From assembly GCA_964016885.1 (NCBI GenBank), contig OZ024740.1:81964001-82028000 (forward strand): DNA of 64,000 nucleotides, given 5' to 3'. Below, one piece after another: positions 11,380 to 31,966 of the stretch; position 1 is the stretch's first letter, and every line of letters begins with the position of its first letter. The position numbers were made by a program, and so were the translations under genes. Under the pieces are notes generated by a model. The model had not been told where the DNA came from, made no database searches, and saw only the letters and a program-made list of their open reading frames with translations. This DNA is from Eledone cirrhosa (Eukaryota).

Positions 11380-11490
11380 GTATTGACAATTGTTTCATTG
11401 ATCAGGTGAGTCTAGAAGTCGCTAATCGTCCGACGTTGCGACACAGGATCTCCATTACATTATTTACCTCTGACTAACTCATCAGAATAC
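11380..11490 (-). ncRNA. Type I hammerhead ribozyme with long stem II insert
   Basis: minus strand: GTATT-CTGATGA-GTTAGTCAG...CTGATCAAT-GAAA-CAATTG-TC-AATAC; 5-bp stem I, palindromic stem III, GUC site. Confidence 0.8.
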
Positions 11491-12635
11491 AAAACCAATT
11501 CACTCAAGGCAAGATATGTATATAGAAATAGCGTATAATCAAAACAATAACATCAATAATAAAATATTTATGATCAATAGGTAGTTACAGATATAAAAAG
11601 TAAAAAGTAAAAGATAAGAAAAAAGATTCAGTAAAAGTAAGAAAATGGAAAAATATAAAGAAATAAAGATAGGTGAGAGCATATAAGTACAGAATATGAT
11701 AGTGGTGTTGGTGAGTAAGTGTCCGTGTAAGCATTCTGTGGTAGGTTTAGTGCTAACATGTAAAGTCATATTCGAAACATACATTGATACGTTTAGAGAG
11801 TCTGATGTAGTGACAGATAAAATAAAAAGGAATAAATTAGAGATTAATTGGAAGATACTAGTATAGGATTCAAGGGTAAGGTTGGATGGTGAAGAGAGGT
11901 TTGACAAATGTGTGTGGTAAATGTTTTGCTGATTGTCTTGTCTTAATGGGGTTGATGCTGTTTCAGGGAGAGAGGGTGAAAGAGATGTTATGATATTTAT
12001 AACCTAGTGACCACTTGGCCGTTTGAGAGCTAATAGCAGTGTGATGGTGTTTATTCCATACGTTAAAATCCAGGGGGTTCAGTTCTAATTTAAGGATTAC
12101 TGGCTCGAATCACGGTGGTTTGAAATTTGTGGACTTGGTAGCCATTTTATGCCTACAGAAAATTGATCTTTCTATTTTGCTATTAAGAGGCATCGTACCT
12201 TAAAATATGGAATAGCTCCATATTACAAAGTCCGCAGTGGGACATCCCATTGTTGTAGGCCCTTGCTTCCGATAATTTTGACCAGCTAATCCTATATTCC
12301 TTGTGTATCACTAGATCAGAGACTCGACACGTATCCACGTATGTTTCGAATATGACCTTTCATGTTAGCACTAAACCCACCACAGAATCCTTAAACGAAC
12401 ACTTACTCACCACTACCACTATCATATTATGTACTTACATGCTCTCACCTAAACTTATTTCTTTATATTCTTCCATTTTCTTACTTTTACCCTATCTTTT
12501 TTCTTATATTTTACTTTTTACTTTTTACATCTGTAATTTCTCTACCTATTTATCATATATATTTTATTATTGATGTTATTGTTTTGACTATACGCTATTT
12601 CTCTATATATATCTTGCCTTGAGTGTATTGTTTTG

Positions 12636-12746
12636 GTATACTGAGGAGTTGGTCAAAGGTAAATAATGTAATGGAGATCGAGTGACGCAACGTCGAGTGA
12701 TTACCGACCTCTAGACTCACCTGATCAATTAAACAATTGTCCATAC
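12636..12746 (+). ncRNA. Mutated HHR copy (GAAA changed to TAAA)
   Basis: GTATA-CTGAGGA-GTTGGTCA...TGATCAAT-TAAA-CAATTG-TC-CATAC. Confidence 0.6.
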
Positions 12747-14391
12747 CTGAAATAACTCCTCTTGTTGTACAGCCAACCATGTCACTCTTCATTCTTTCAC
12801 TATATATATATAAAAGAAAACACTGACTATTGATGATGAGGAATCTTCCTACTTCTAGAGATATATTTTCAAGATTCCTCCTTGAAGTATAGCTATCATT
12901 GAAGTAGCTCGAATGTCAACCTAAACTTATATATATATATATATATATATATATATATATATATATATATATATATATATATATATATATACATACATTC
13001 CAATTCATGCATATCGACGTGTCTTTGTCTGAGTATGTGTCTATGTGTCCTTTTACATTTTGTTTGGGATAACAACTGTAGCTTTTTCTCAAATGAATAA
13101 ATAAAGACAATGTAGAACGAAATATTTTTACTAGAAAAATCTACATTCATAAGTAGCCATTATGTTACGCTATTCGCTTTACAATTCCGGGTTAAAGTCA
13201 GGTAGTGAGTTTTCATTTTCAAGAGCTTAACAATTCGTAATGTTCACTTAGTAAATGTCGTTTATCTAATTCCACAATAGTTTCAATGCGTCGTTGAATC
13301 CCCCGATTCCTTCAATGTGACATATAACACATTATTGTATTTAACAGACAGGTTATTTGATAATATAACTGCGTTATGTATATTGATCAATTATTACCAC
13401 ATCTGCGCATTTTCCGACACATTCTACGTTCAATAATTATAATTCAATCCACGTGTGATTTCGTGTACGATCATGGAAATAATTATTTCTAGAATTATTA
13501 CGTTGGGTCAGAATGAATCGATTAAACGTACACAAGTCGTTAACTGCTAAATGCGCTATCAATTGTGAAGGGAAAACTAGATCTGTCGAAAACAAACGGA
13601 TTTTAATTCAGAATAGAAGGAGATGTGGTTGAATATTACAAAACCAATTGTTTAGCAACGATCATATTAGAAATTACACATCTTGAATTTACAATAATAA
13701 TTGTTTACACTAATAAACCTCATCGCATGAAAGATTTTTGATCCAACAAAGTAAAACTATTCTTGAGGAATATCAAAACACTTTCTTTAACAAATACGCA
13801 GATAATTCAAATAATACACACACACACACACATCTCATAAACATACACATACGCACACACACACACATACACATACGCAAACACACACATATACCTGCTT
13901 TAGGATATCTTATCATTAATTAGAAAACAAACAATCTGATGAGAAGCTAATTACGATTTTCACAAGTATTTCACATTTAGTTCTGATAGGGCTTTACTTT
14001 TTCCAGGATTAATAAAACAATGTACTAGTTACGTAATCGACTTGATGAATAGATTTTTAACTTACCACAAATTGCTGAAACTATTATTTCTGTTGAATGT
14101 TTTTGCATCTCGCTTATTGCTTTCCGCTTATATCTTATACTTCAATCAAATTTCCCTATGAATTGATTGTTTAAAATATTTATATATCTTTTAATCCAAT
14201 ATTATTGAGTATATCTATCTATATATTACTACCACTACAGGAATTGATAAGCAAAACCTTAGAGGTATGTCGCATATCCAATCTCTCATATATTTTATCT
14301 GATGAAAACGTACTGAAACACCATTGTACCTTTGAAATATTTATAATAAAATATATATTTTAGTTTGAGAATATTTTTCATTTATTAATAT

Positions 14392-14907
14392 TCTGTATAC
14401 ATATATGTATGTACGTGTACATAGTTATATTTAAGTAACAGCCGTACTAAGAGTGGGAAATGAAATTTCGTTTCATTTTTTACGTTTATCGTTTTCGGTG
14501 CACCCGGCCGATTAACCCACTCGATGTGCAAATTGAGCTACTCAACCGTTAATATGCATAAGGAAAGTATATACTTTCAGACGTTCAACAATCTGGCAGG
14601 AAGGTATACGTTGCTGACGATAGCTAATAAGCTTGAAACTAGTACAGCGTTCCTTTTTCAGTGTTGAACAAACGAGCAACGATGGTTGCTAGACACTACG
14701 GCTTAATACGGGATGTTTGTTTACAAACACACCGAGCATTATAATACATGTTCGGTGAATCCATACGTACATATATATATGTGTGTGCATGTATGTATAT
14801 ATACATATTACTGTACGTCTGTATACATATATGTATGTACGTGTACATACTTATATTTAAGTAACAGCCGTACTAAGAGTGAGAAATGAAATTTCGTTTA
14901 ATTTTTT
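14392..14907 (+). mobile_element. 426-bp unit with about 90-bp direct terminal repeats and a central HHR (retrozyme/pLTR-like)
   Basis: 14392-14481 repeated at 14818-14907; HHR at 14608-14650. Confidence 0.6.
14608..14650 (+). ncRNA. Minimal type I hammerhead ribozyme
   Basis: ACGTTG-CTGACGA-T-AGCT(AATA)AGCT-T-GAAA-CTAG-TA-CAGCGT; 6-bp stem I, palindromic stem III ACTAGT, GUA site. Confidence 0.8.
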
Positions 14908-29633: not shown

Positions 29634-30871
29634 TATATATATATATATGTGTGTGTGTGTGTGTGAAGTAATTCCGTCGGAAAGGTCCAGGAAAAAAGAG
29701 TGCTCTATGTATATATATATATAGTTATGTAATAAACAACATAAGATAATTATTTCATTTACCAGTGGTTTCGTAAAAAGCAAACTAAATATGCTTTCAT
29801 TCATCAAAATGAAAAAATCCTGGTCTATTTATTGACTGGATTTTAAAAACAAAAATATAATCTATATGAAAGTGAGGCTAGAAAAGGAAGAAGGAGACGA
29901 AAAATGGAGCGGAAAAAAAAAGAAAGCAAAAATAATAAATATAAAAGTATATAAACACACATGCACACACACACATACACGCACACACACATATACATAC
30001 ACACATATAAACACATACATATACACATACACACATATATTTATATATATATATATATACACATACATAGACACATGTATACATATACACACATACATAC
30101 ATATATATATATATATATATATATATATATATATATATATATATATATATATATGAAAAAGAGCACAAGAGCATTTTAAAAAATCTTTTGATGTTGTAGA
30201 CGCTCTTGTGTTCTTTTTCATATATACGGCTCTGCTCAAAAGCATAGAGCTAATTATTATGCTGCCAATACCTTAACGGGACACGGGTATATAATACCTA
30301 ACTCCTACTAACCTAAGTATATATATGTATATATATACACATATCCATACATACACATACACACAAATACACAAACACAGACACATGCATATATATATAT
30401 ATATATACATATACACATATATATATATATACACACACATATATATATATATATACATACACACACAGTCATATATATATACACACCTACATACGCACGT
30501 ACACAATTAATTATAAGAAAATAATAATAAAAAAATAATGCAAAAGGCCGTCACATCAAAATAAAAATATACGACTTAAGAAAATAAGAAATAATAAAAA
30601 TTATTATAATGTTGACAGCGATACAGCAACGGACACAAATAAATAAACAAACACATGTGGTAAGCAATACACACATATTTACGCATACACATACATATAA
30701 ATAAATAAATACATACACTCACACACATATACATACATATATATCATTATACATACATACACATATATACACATACAATTACATATACATATATATATAC
30801 ACACACGTATATATACACACATATATACATACATATAATATATATATATATATATATATATATATATATAT

Positions 30872-31023
30872 AGAGAGAGAGAGAGAGAGAGAGAGAGAGA
30901 GAGAGAGAGAGGAGAGAGAGAGAGAGAGAGAGATAAAGAGAGAGAGAAGAGAGAGAGAGAGAGAGAGAGAGAGAGAGAGAGAGAGAGAGAGAGAGAGAGA
31001 GAAAGAGAGAGAGAGAGAGAGAG
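30872..31023. repeat. (GA)n microsatellite following (TA)n
   Basis: direct read. Confidence 0.95.
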
Positions 31024-31335
31024 CAAACATCACGGGCGCTCTATCTCAAAATTATTTTTGAAAAGCATTAGAAATGCGCAACCGGTAAATCTTAAAACCA
31101 AAACTGAATACTAACCAATACTATTACTAATTTTTACTTATTCCTAATTAAACTATTTTTCACTGGGAACAATTTGTCAGCATTTTCTTTTCCTTTTACC
31201 AATATATATATATATATATATATATATATATAAAATATAAAGGTTTACATATACATAAAGTCATAGATATATATGTTTTGCAACCGGTCGTGTTGTGGCT
31301 CAATGAAGAATTAATAAATTAAATAATCAGAGCAA

Positions 31336-31966
31336 TATATCATAAATCATGTCCTTAGAATCACTAGATAAAATATATGCCATTTCCTCTCCCAATTAGC
31401 ATAATAAACCATATAAAGAAATCAATTAGGCCAAGCTATAAGAATAAAGTTTCCTATGAAGAAATGTTCGACAAATAACCGAAAGCGGCCTCTTCGCGGT
31501 GGCCCCGATAGAGTATTTATCCAACATTTCAACAGCATGTAGAAACTGACTAAATATACCGTCAACCATACACAATTAGGTGTAAATTTCTAATTTAGAG
31601 TTCGCTCCTGATGAGTCCGAAACTCTGGACATATCCTGTTATTGGATGTCTAAAAATACGGACGAAACCATGGTAGAGATATCATTACGGTATGTGCACA
31701 TTTCTTCTAAGTTTGAATTTACACCTAATTGTGTATGTTTGACGGTATATTTAGTCAGTTTCCACATGCTGTTAAAATGTTGGATAAATACTCTATCGGG
31801 GCCACCGCTAAGAGGCCGCTTTCGGTTATTTGTCGAATATTTCTTCATAGGAGCCTTTATTATTATAGCTTTGTTTAATTGATTTTTTTATATGGTTAAT
31901 TATGCTAATTGGGAGAAGAAATGATATATATTTTATCTAGTGATGCTAAGGACATGATTTATGATA
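31336..31966. repeat. About 265-bp inverted repeat with an HHR in the spacer
   Basis: 31336-31599 is the reverse complement of 31706-31966. Confidence 0.9.
31605..31678 (+). ncRNA. Type I HHR with extended, branched stem II
   Basis: CTC-CTGATGA-GTCCG..(GACATATCC/GGATGTC hairpin)..CGGAC-GAAA-CCATGG-TA-GAG. Confidence 0.8.

What the first reader, a model, noticed from the sequence alone, without database searches (positions are those of the whole stretch)
11380..31678. HHR variant with long structured stem II insertions in three dissimilar sequence contexts
Seen: the motifs at 11380-11490 (with its mutated mirror at 12636), 23750-23868 and 31605-31678 keep the core and an 8-nt palindromic stem III, but stem II encloses about 40-90 nt. 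The 31605 insert contains its own hairpin. The three inserts share no obvious sequence. Minimal PLE HHRs normally have short stem II loops, so standard covariance models may miss these. Inference: a possibly under-described HHR subclass whose insert could supply tertiary contacts or an RT/protein recognition signal.
Basis: partly seen in the sequence, partly recalled or inferred. Interest (0 to 1): 0.75.

Follow-up and report, generated by a model that had tools for sequence, protein, structure and literature searches.

The report
Long-armed hammerheads of Penelope retrotransposons
These three motifs are copies of predicted self-cutting hammerhead RNAs at the ends of Penelope-type jumping genes; their second arm is several times longer than in published relatives, is inherited by whole families (over 20,000 such motifs in this animal genome), and likely adds folding contacts or a protein handle, though cutting is untested.

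Summary
The three motifs are real type I hammerheads with 8-nt palindromic stem III and 82, 94 and 49 nt between the core boxes. One correction: B's core carries U4C, as do 89 of 100 listed family copies. The extensions are family traits, not copy-specific insertions: only 14 shortened copies each were found for A and C, all partial deletions. A and B end Hydra-clade Penelope-like retrotransposons; C is an ORF-less 645-707-bp unit. The genome holds over 20,000 long-armed motifs in at least eight superfamilies, whereas published Hydra loops 2 are 3-10 nt. A's extension keeps its pairing across subfamilies (87.7% vs 69.9% in a tree null) around near-invariant 2x1 loops that recur in three other superfamilies. 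C's internal loop likely pairs with the upstream flank (61 of 61 copies, one compensatory switch). Against function: no extension pair covaries significantly on its own, B's extension is no more stable than shuffles, and a pseudoknot prediction failed in family H. Cleavage and expression are untested. The scan noted this class before, here and in other genomes. Verdict: new variant of a known kind.

The parts
11380..11490 (-). Hammerhead A: type I, 5-bp stem I, 82 nt between core boxes, palindrome ACAAUUGU, predicted cut after C at 11385
11397..11478 (-). Stem II extension of A: basal helix, asymmetric loop, two 2x1 internal loops (inner one mutated in this copy), 9-bp helix, terminal hairpin
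11177..12304 (-). 5'-truncated Hydra-clade Penelope-like copy (family A): endonuclease C-terminus, 3' UTR, hammerhead, tail ending in (TA)n
12119..12304 (-). C-terminal fragment of the Hydra-type GIY-YIG endonuclease (CxxC..E..N..CxH), 633 nt upstream of hammerhead A
   Evidence: profile positions 78-141, E 6.6e-13
12308..12803 (+). Inverted, more truncated copy of family A, head to head with the first
12636..12746 (+). Mirror hammerhead of A, G12 changed to U and first stem I pair mismatched; predicted inactive
23316..24363 (+). 3' part of a Hydra-clade Penelope-like copy (family B), interrupted in its (TTA)n stretch by an unrelated short repeat at about 23891-24071
23750..23868 (+). Hammerhead B: core CCGAUGA (U4C), 94 nt between boxes, palindrome ACAAUUGU, predicted cut after A at 23865
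31583..31969 (+). 5'-truncated copy of the ORF-less 645-707-bp unit (family C), ending in (TA)n
31229..31599 (-). Inverted arm of family C (tail only, no hammerhead)
31605..31678 (+). Hammerhead C: intact core, 49 nt between boxes with inner hairpin, palindrome ACCAUGGU, predicted cut after A at 31675
31598..31625 (+). Predicted pseudoknot of C: upstream 31598-31602 pairing with internal-loop 31621-31625

Best explanation
The three motifs are type I hammerheads in the end repeats of two Hydra-clade Penelope-like retrotransposon families and of an ORF-less unit that likely depends on such elements; each carries a family-wide long stem II that likely acts as an accessory domain (a pseudoknot contact in C, conserved loops likely read by a protein or another RNA part in A), and they are predicted to cut mainly as dimers. 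Steps. (1, shown) The motif lies 370-1,080 nt behind the endonuclease, and the sequence after it runs on into the ORF start of the next unit, so it is in the pseudo-LTR. (2, predicted) Two motifs pair through the 8-nt palindrome to form stem III and cut after GUH, setting unit ends. (3, shown) The extension lies 5' of the cut, so it would end the upstream product; genomic copies run about 60-300 nt past the cut, so the copied RNA is inferred to be uncut or re-joined. (4, shown as conservation, inferred as function) Helices of the extension keep pairing while their letters change, and small loops stay fixed. (5, inferred) These loops supply the stem I-stem II contact that minimal PLE hammerheads lack, or a binding site for the element's RT/EN protein.
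For: Family trait. Scale: 7,822 (control 15), 16,383 (control 1,186), and 1,623 B-type mostly outside these. Hydra motifs RWK and DKT in A, DKT in B, CxCX5C and CxxC/CxH in both (defined in PMC8557442); Hydra endonuclease also upstream of F, G and H. C: 0 of 72 copies with a Hydra ORF upstream (3 unrelated hits); 7 tandem spacings of 645-707 bp; longest ORF 26-81 aa in the 5 units tested. A extension, 54 copies: 85.3% of cells paired against 29-43% slid, 14 of 24 pairs with double changes; inner stems 87.7% against 69.9 +/- 4.2% in a tree null, p about 0.003 with 300 runs; loop bases 94-100% fixed. The 2x1 loop lies within 1.5 kcal of the best fold in 26 of 41 copies of A, D, F, G, against 1 of 145 of their shuffles. 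C pseudoknot: pair next to the invariant GAG/CUC kept in 36 of 36 aligned copies and in 61 of 61 copies having both triplets, of 71 examined. A dimer mimic lowers the median cost of the active fold in 9 of 9 groups, marginally in B. A PLE hammerhead needing its protein is published (PMC11167929).
Against: No extension pair passes a tree-corrected single-pair covariation test in A, C or D. The structures were chosen after seeing the sequences, and the 2x1 motif was defined after looking. Same-branch double changes in A's inner stems are borderline (2.4 vs 1.0, p 0.09). The C switch is one event on the tree, one of 8 columns splitting that clade. In H the predicted compensation failed in 10 of 17 scorable copies; in E the pairing is invariant or broken. 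A, B, D, F show no flank pairing. B's extension is not more stable than shuffles (inner median z +0.28) and A's only weakly (-0.53). A's extension is about as diverged overall as the flanking UTR (0.64 vs 0.55-0.62; tail 0.74). The active fold of the window's A copy stays 6.7 kcal above the best fold even as a dimer mimic. About half of the ACAAUUGU hammerheads are short and abundant, so the arm is not needed by Hydra elements in general.
Confidence: 0.58

Rival explanations
1. The extensions are tolerated passengers: stem II points away from the core, so each lineage accumulated a hairpin that is kept only because it must fold back on itself and leave the core alone.
For: Extensions of different superfamilies do not align; short-armed Hydra families thrive here and elsewhere; no single-pair covariation; overall divergence like the UTR; B unstructured against shuffles. 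Tolerance of stem II to inserts is recalled, from no call.
Against: Unpaired loop bases are 94-100% fixed while the neighbouring helix turns over; the same 2x1 loop recurs in four superfamilies; C's loop covaries with a flank outside the arm.
Confidence: 0.27
2. Cleavage no longer matters for these elements: the long-armed motifs are weak or dead ribozymes kept as part of the pseudo-LTR, and any role of the extension is in template recognition only.
For: B spread to about 1,600 matches with U4C in 89 of 100 listed copies; hammerhead mutants do not impair insertion of a Poseidon PLE in vitro (PMC11167929); the active fold is costly in A and D; copies extend past the cut site.
Against: Stem I keeps pairing with changed letters among subfamilies, and different palindromes occur within D and E, as expected under selection for a hammerhead fold (core boxes were search criteria and do not count); U4C lowers activity in vitro but is tolerated in a viroid (PMC3088659).
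Confidence: 0.1
3. The extension is a small retained intron or a DNA promoter element of the pseudo-LTR rather than an RNA domain.
For: A has conserved GUA...UAG ends about 47 nt apart; an intron abuts the hammerhead in D. virilis Penelope (PMC4209133); pLTRs hold promoters (PMC6765202).
Against: Position +5 is U, not G, in all eight commonest 5' hexamers; C has no GU-AG; none of the 14 shortened A copies is a clean excision (by eye); compensatory pairing points to RNA structure.
Confidence: 0.05

Closest known systems
Hammerheads of Hydra-clade Penelope-like elements, incl. Hydra-1_oBim (Craig et al. 2021, PMC8557442; passages, supplement parts 1-2 and search hits seen)
   Same: Type I, sense strand, 3' of a C-terminal GIY-YIG; 8-10-nt near-palindromic stem III; free 10.1-11.1 position; (TA)n targets; inverted truncated copies; protein motifs RWK, DKT, CxCX5C.
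   Different: File S2 lists loop 2 of 3-10 nt for all Hydra entries; here 39-100 nt with internal loops or a three-way junction. Only PLE-X1 of spike mosses has 29-35-nt loops there, marked as deviating.
Minimal PLE hammerheads (Cervera and De la Pena 2014, PMC4209133; main text parts 1-2 of 4 and the whole supplement PDF seen)
   Same: pLTR location, palindromic stem III, dimer design, extra nucleotide at the base of helix II.
   Different: Their descriptor allows stem II of 3-7 bp and loop 2 of 3-10 nt and would miss these; the alignment rows I saw have loops under 10 nt; no tertiary contact was recognised.
Non-LTR retrozymes (PMC7229834, passages; bioRxiv 10.64898/2026.07.22.740005, part 1 of 5)
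   Same: Family C is ORF-less, carries a type I hammerhead and occurs in tandem.
   Different: Unit 645-707 bp rather than 170-400 nt; PLE-type hammerhead with long arm; only dimers seen in my loci, most copies truncated or inverted; circular RNA untested.
Pseudoknot-stabilised hammerheads (Perreault et al. 2011, PMC3088659; passages)
   Same: A Watson-Crick contact between stem I and stem II regions, as predicted for C.
   Different: Here it would come from an internal loop of a long arm and the 5' flank, in an animal retroelement with a dimer-type stem III.

Membership tests
Type I hammerhead ribozyme | Core CUGANGA...GAAA...UH | tested here: met
   A and C intact; core CUGANGA in 24 of 30 and 28 of 30 top copies
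Type I hammerhead ribozyme | Canonical U4 in family B | tested here: not met
   CCGA in 89 of 100 listed copies, CUGA 9, CAGA 2; U4C is a known natural variant
Type I hammerhead ribozyme | Three stems, open stem I | tested here: met
   33 of 54 long hits of a positional sample pass stem I >=3 bp and a basal stem II filter, against 0 of 117 metagenome pattern hits
Type I hammerhead ribozyme | Self-cleavage at GUH | not testable with these tools
   needs an in vitro assay or raw RNA reads
PLE dimeric hammerhead | Palindromic stem III, dimer favoured | tested here: met
   ACAAUUGU, ACCAUGGU, ACGAUCGU, ACUCGAGU, ACGCGCGU; dimer mimic cheaper in 9 of 9 groups, a prediction only
PLE dimeric hammerhead | Short loop 2 (3-10 nt) | tested here: not met
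   39-100 nt against published tables
Hydra-clade PLE (families A, B) | RWK and DKT motifs in RT | tested here: met
   A: RWK and DKT in L161; B: DKT in L166, RWK region not recovered; matches published Hydra proteins by eye
Hydra-clade PLE (families A, B) | C-terminal GIY-YIG with CxCX5C linker and CxxC/CxH | tested here: met
   Pfam GIY-YIG only weak, E 0.067
Hydra-clade PLE (families A, B) | (TA)n targets, inverted 5'-truncated copies | tested here: met
   (TA)5+ downstream in 28 of 30 A; inverted partner in 13 of 30 A and 7 of 30 B
Hydra-clade PLE (families A, B) | Placement in an RT tree with published Hydra members | not tested
   only own-genome endonuclease trees were built
Non-LTR retrozyme (family C) | No ORF, tandem units with a type I hammerhead | tested here: met
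Non-LTR retrozyme (family C) | Unit of about 170-400 nt with canonical loop 1-loop 2 contacts | tested here: not met
   645-707 bp; PLE-type motif
Non-LTR retrozyme (family C) | Circular RNA intermediate | not testable with these tools
   needs RNA data from this species

The most novel reading that the evidence does not exclude
Hydra-clade Penelope elements of this lineage have repeatedly built a functional accessory domain onto hammerhead stem II: in C an internal-loop pseudoknot that restores the missing stem I-stem II contact, and in A, D, F and G a shared 2x1 loop motif that binds the element's RT/endonuclease and couples protein loading to cleavage, making these natural protein-gated ribozymes present in more than 20,000 copies.
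Probability: 0.25. Interest if true: 0.78.

Novelty: new variant of a known kind. Interest (0 to 1): 0.52.

Why it matters
What PLE hammerheads do is open: they cut poorly in vitro, lack the usual tertiary contacts, and one tested case needs its protein. Long-armed versions with fixed loops and a candidate pseudoknot give specific bases to mutate. They also show that published descriptors (loop 2 up to 10 nt) overlook roughly half of one hammerhead type in this genome, so ribozyme counts in animal genomes may be too low. Family B shows that an element can reach about 1,600 copies with a U4C core.

Tried and rejected
Copy-specific insertion: rejected. One homologous insert shared by A, B and C: rejected, separate clusters. 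All-pairs G-test with APC and a tree null: no extension pair significant; the only hit was a small hairpin downstream of D. First C structure string was mis-registered and redone (81.5% paired, 6 of 10 pairs with double changes, lowered by alignment offsets). Idea that pseudoknots mark ORF-less families: rejected, since H has a Hydra endonuclease in 2 of 30 copies and its compensation test failed. Intron reading of A: unsupported. Endonuclease trees put long arms in divergent lineages, but deep nodes are weak (35-65), so single against multiple origins is undecided. Sequencing runs: no RNA holder listed; contigs laid on C showed no joint or deletion, uninformative on expression. Rfam: nothing at E<=1 in the window or at gathering score in 8 loci. 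Constrained cofolding crashed and was replaced by a single-strand dimer mimic. Literature searches gave no description of long stem II in PLE hammerheads; Lunse et al. (RNA Biol) and Arkhipova et al. 2017 could not be read and may hold such variants; figures of the papers were not visible.
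Full report
Observation. The three motifs are present. A lies on the minus strand (core 11485-11479, 82 nt to GAAA, palindrome ACAAUUGU, GUC at 11385, 5-bp stem I). Its mirror at 12636-12746 has G12 changed to U. B has CCGAUGA at 23753, 94 nt and GUA at 23865. C has an intact core at 31608, 49 nt with an inner hairpin, ACCAUGGU and GUA at 31675. Rfam reports none at E<=1, but it also misses short-armed hammerheads of this genome.

Families. Each motif is a high-copy repeat in the 3.0-Gb own genome: 1,522 (A), 1,557 (B) and 2,050 (C) first-look candidates, 40 scored each. 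All 30 fetched copies of each family carry the extension, but the query included it. Flank-anchored patterns remove that bias: 14 A-type copies have a gap of 60 nt or less against 2,773 matches at 72-88 nt, mostly A-type by the first 100 rows; 14 C-type copies have 39 nt or less against 2,620 at 40-62 nt. The patterns differ in flank stringency, so the ratios are rough. All 28 short copies read as partial deletions. The same test was not run for B.

Host elements. Upstream of A and B lies a C-terminal GIY-YIG endonuclease with a CxCX5C linker and CxxC/CxH motifs; the RT has DKT in both and RWK in A. These define the Hydra clade in PMC8557442 (passages; proteins compared by eye). The window's A copy holds the endonuclease end at 12119-12304, 633 nt before the hammerhead, head to head with an inverted copy. 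In a near-full copy the sequence after the hammerhead runs into the ORF start, so the motif is in the pseudo-LTR. C has no Hydra ORF upstream in 72 copies (3 unrelated hits), shows 7 tandem spacings of 645-707 bp and ORFs of at most 81 aa in the 5 units tested. It has (TA)5+ downstream in 25 of 30 copies and inverted partners in 17 of 30. I read it as a non-autonomous derivative; its mobiliser is inferred, since no sequence link beyond TA repeats was found. The host species was not determined; 'octopus-like' rests on recalled repeats and earlier notes.

Scale. Core-gap-GAAAC-AAUU-GUH matches 15,700 times at 8-100 nt (control 15) and 7,822 times at 50-140 nt (control 15). With other stem III letters, 35-110 nt gives 16,383 (control 1,186). 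B adds 1,623, mostly outside these because of U4C. Some rows are nested double counts. Over 20,000 long-armed motifs is a fair reading. The fetched sample falls into at least eight superfamilies whose extensions do not align: A 75-83, B 90-98, C 48-59, D 58-63, E 93-97 (two hairpins), F 90, G 96-105, H 83-84 nt. Hydra endonucleases lie upstream of A, B, F, G and H, and of a short-armed family; none was found for C, D (one nested hit) or E. Trees of the endonuclease place long arms in divergent lineages with weak deep support.

Is the extension under structural selection? In 54 A-type copies (54 of 57 distinct) a 24-pair model has 85.3% of cells paired against 29-43% when slid, with double changes at 14 pairs, e.g. 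CG 30/UA 22/UG 2 and AU 23/GC 23. In a null that evolves columns independently on the tree, inner stems pair at 69.9 +/- 4.2% against 87.7% observed (p about 0.003, 300 runs); same-branch double changes are 2.4 against 1.0 (p 0.09), and 4.4 against 1.6 for all pairs (p 0.03). The unpaired A and G of two 2x1 loops (5'-A N U / A G) are 94-100% fixed. That loop lies within 1.5 kcal of the best fold in 7 of 12 A, 7 of 12 D, 9 of 12 G and 3 of 5 F copies, in 0 of 39 copies of B, C, E and H, and in 3 of 280 shuffles. I defined it after looking at the sequences, and shared ancestry is not excluded. Against: no extension pair is significant on its own; inner-only fold z-scores are strong for C, E, F, G, H, D (medians -2.0 to -4.5) but weak for A (-0.53) and B (+0.28); A's extension is as diverged overall as the nearby UTR.

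Candidate tertiary contact. In C an invariant CUC in the first internal loop is complementary to an invariant GAG 10-12 nt upstream of the core. The adjacent pair is kept in 36 of 36 aligned copies (UA 18, CG 16, UG 2) and in 61 of 61 copies having both triplets, of 71 examined. It is one switch on the tree, among 8 of 104 columns splitting that clade; the next pair is kept in only 20 of 36. All 10 C subfamilies have 4 or more complementary bases there, against 13% of cross-family pairings; E (2 of 3) and H look similar, A, B, D and F do not. The follow-up test failed for H: a second subfamily changed the loop without changing the flank (10 of 17 scorable copies), and E is invariant or broken. 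So the pseudoknot is plausible for C only. The upstream GAG could also compete for stem I.

Core. B carries U4C in 89 of the first 100 listed copies, also in copies with an ORF. U4C is reported to lower activity in vitro yet allow viroid infectivity (PMC3088659, passage). The active monomer fold costs a median 2.7-7.5 kcal above the best fold, a dimer mimic 0-4.7; short-armed motifs cost 4.9 and 2.3. The window copies cost 6.7 (A), 4.7 (B) and 1.1 (C) as dimer mimics, so C is the best candidate for activity. These are folding predictions.

Mechanism. Shown: position, family-wide inheritance, conserved pairing. Predicted: dimer formation through the palindrome and cutting after GUH, as for PLE hammerheads (PMC4209133; PMC6765202). 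The extension lies 5' of the cut. Genomic copies end about 60-300 nt past the cut, so the template is inferred to be uncut or re-joined RNA, in line with a Poseidon element whose hammerhead needs protein to cut but is dispensable for insertion in vitro (PMC11167929, passages). Inferred: the arm supplies the missing stem I-stem II contact in C, and a protein or RNA docking site in A, D, F and G. I put 0.85 on the identity, about 0.58 on an accessory function, 0.27 on a tolerated hairpin.

Comparison and novelty. Published Hydra hammerheads, including the octopus Hydra-1_oBim, have loops 2 of 3-10 nt; only two spike-moss PLE-X1 entries reach 29-35 nt. The 2014 descriptor caps loop 2 at 10 nt. 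Seven searches found no account of this class, but two key papers could not be read. No example turned up in metagenome contigs (0 of 117). Earlier notes of this scan report the same class here and in other genomes; they are unchecked and not counted as support. It works like a PLE dimeric hammerhead and A and B are Hydra-clade members; the long arm is a new variant of a known kind.

Noticed in passing
window 6800-9140 (+): [quoted passage not shown]
   Followed up: no
window 44678-45913, 46164-50784 (+) and 25796-29631 (-): Penelope/Poseidon-like elements with short-armed hammerhead cores at 45786, 50631 and 25949; Rfam does not report them.
   Followed up: no
window about 50900-52100 (-): Another Hydra-type endonuclease fragment ending near 51878, with a short-armed core at 50926.
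   Followed up: partly
window about 32900-33200 (-): Short Hydra-type endonuclease fragment ending near 33057, with no hammerhead core in the next 1,400 nt.
   Followed up: no
window 23891-24071: Short interspersed repeat inserted in the (TTA)n stretch just behind hammerhead B; related copies at 10039, 17316 and 17997-18184.
   Followed up: no
window 16327-16653, 16818-16997, 32367-32873, 15235-15296: Further head-to-head inverted repeats of Penelope-like layout.
   Followed up: no
window 813-6128 (+) and 53854-57305 (-): Two diverged LINE-type elements with an AP endonuclease and RT, about 69% identical.
   Followed up: no
family B, genome-wide: U4C core in 89 of 100 listed copies of a family with 1,623 matches; the few CUGA copies in the main subfamilies may be CpG decay.
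   Followed up: partly
L122, L441: Tandem spacings of 989 bp (family E) and 1,057 bp (family H), suggesting further ORF-less units.
   Followed up: partly
family D tail: The only significant covarying pair lies in a small hairpin just downstream of stem I.
   Followed up: no
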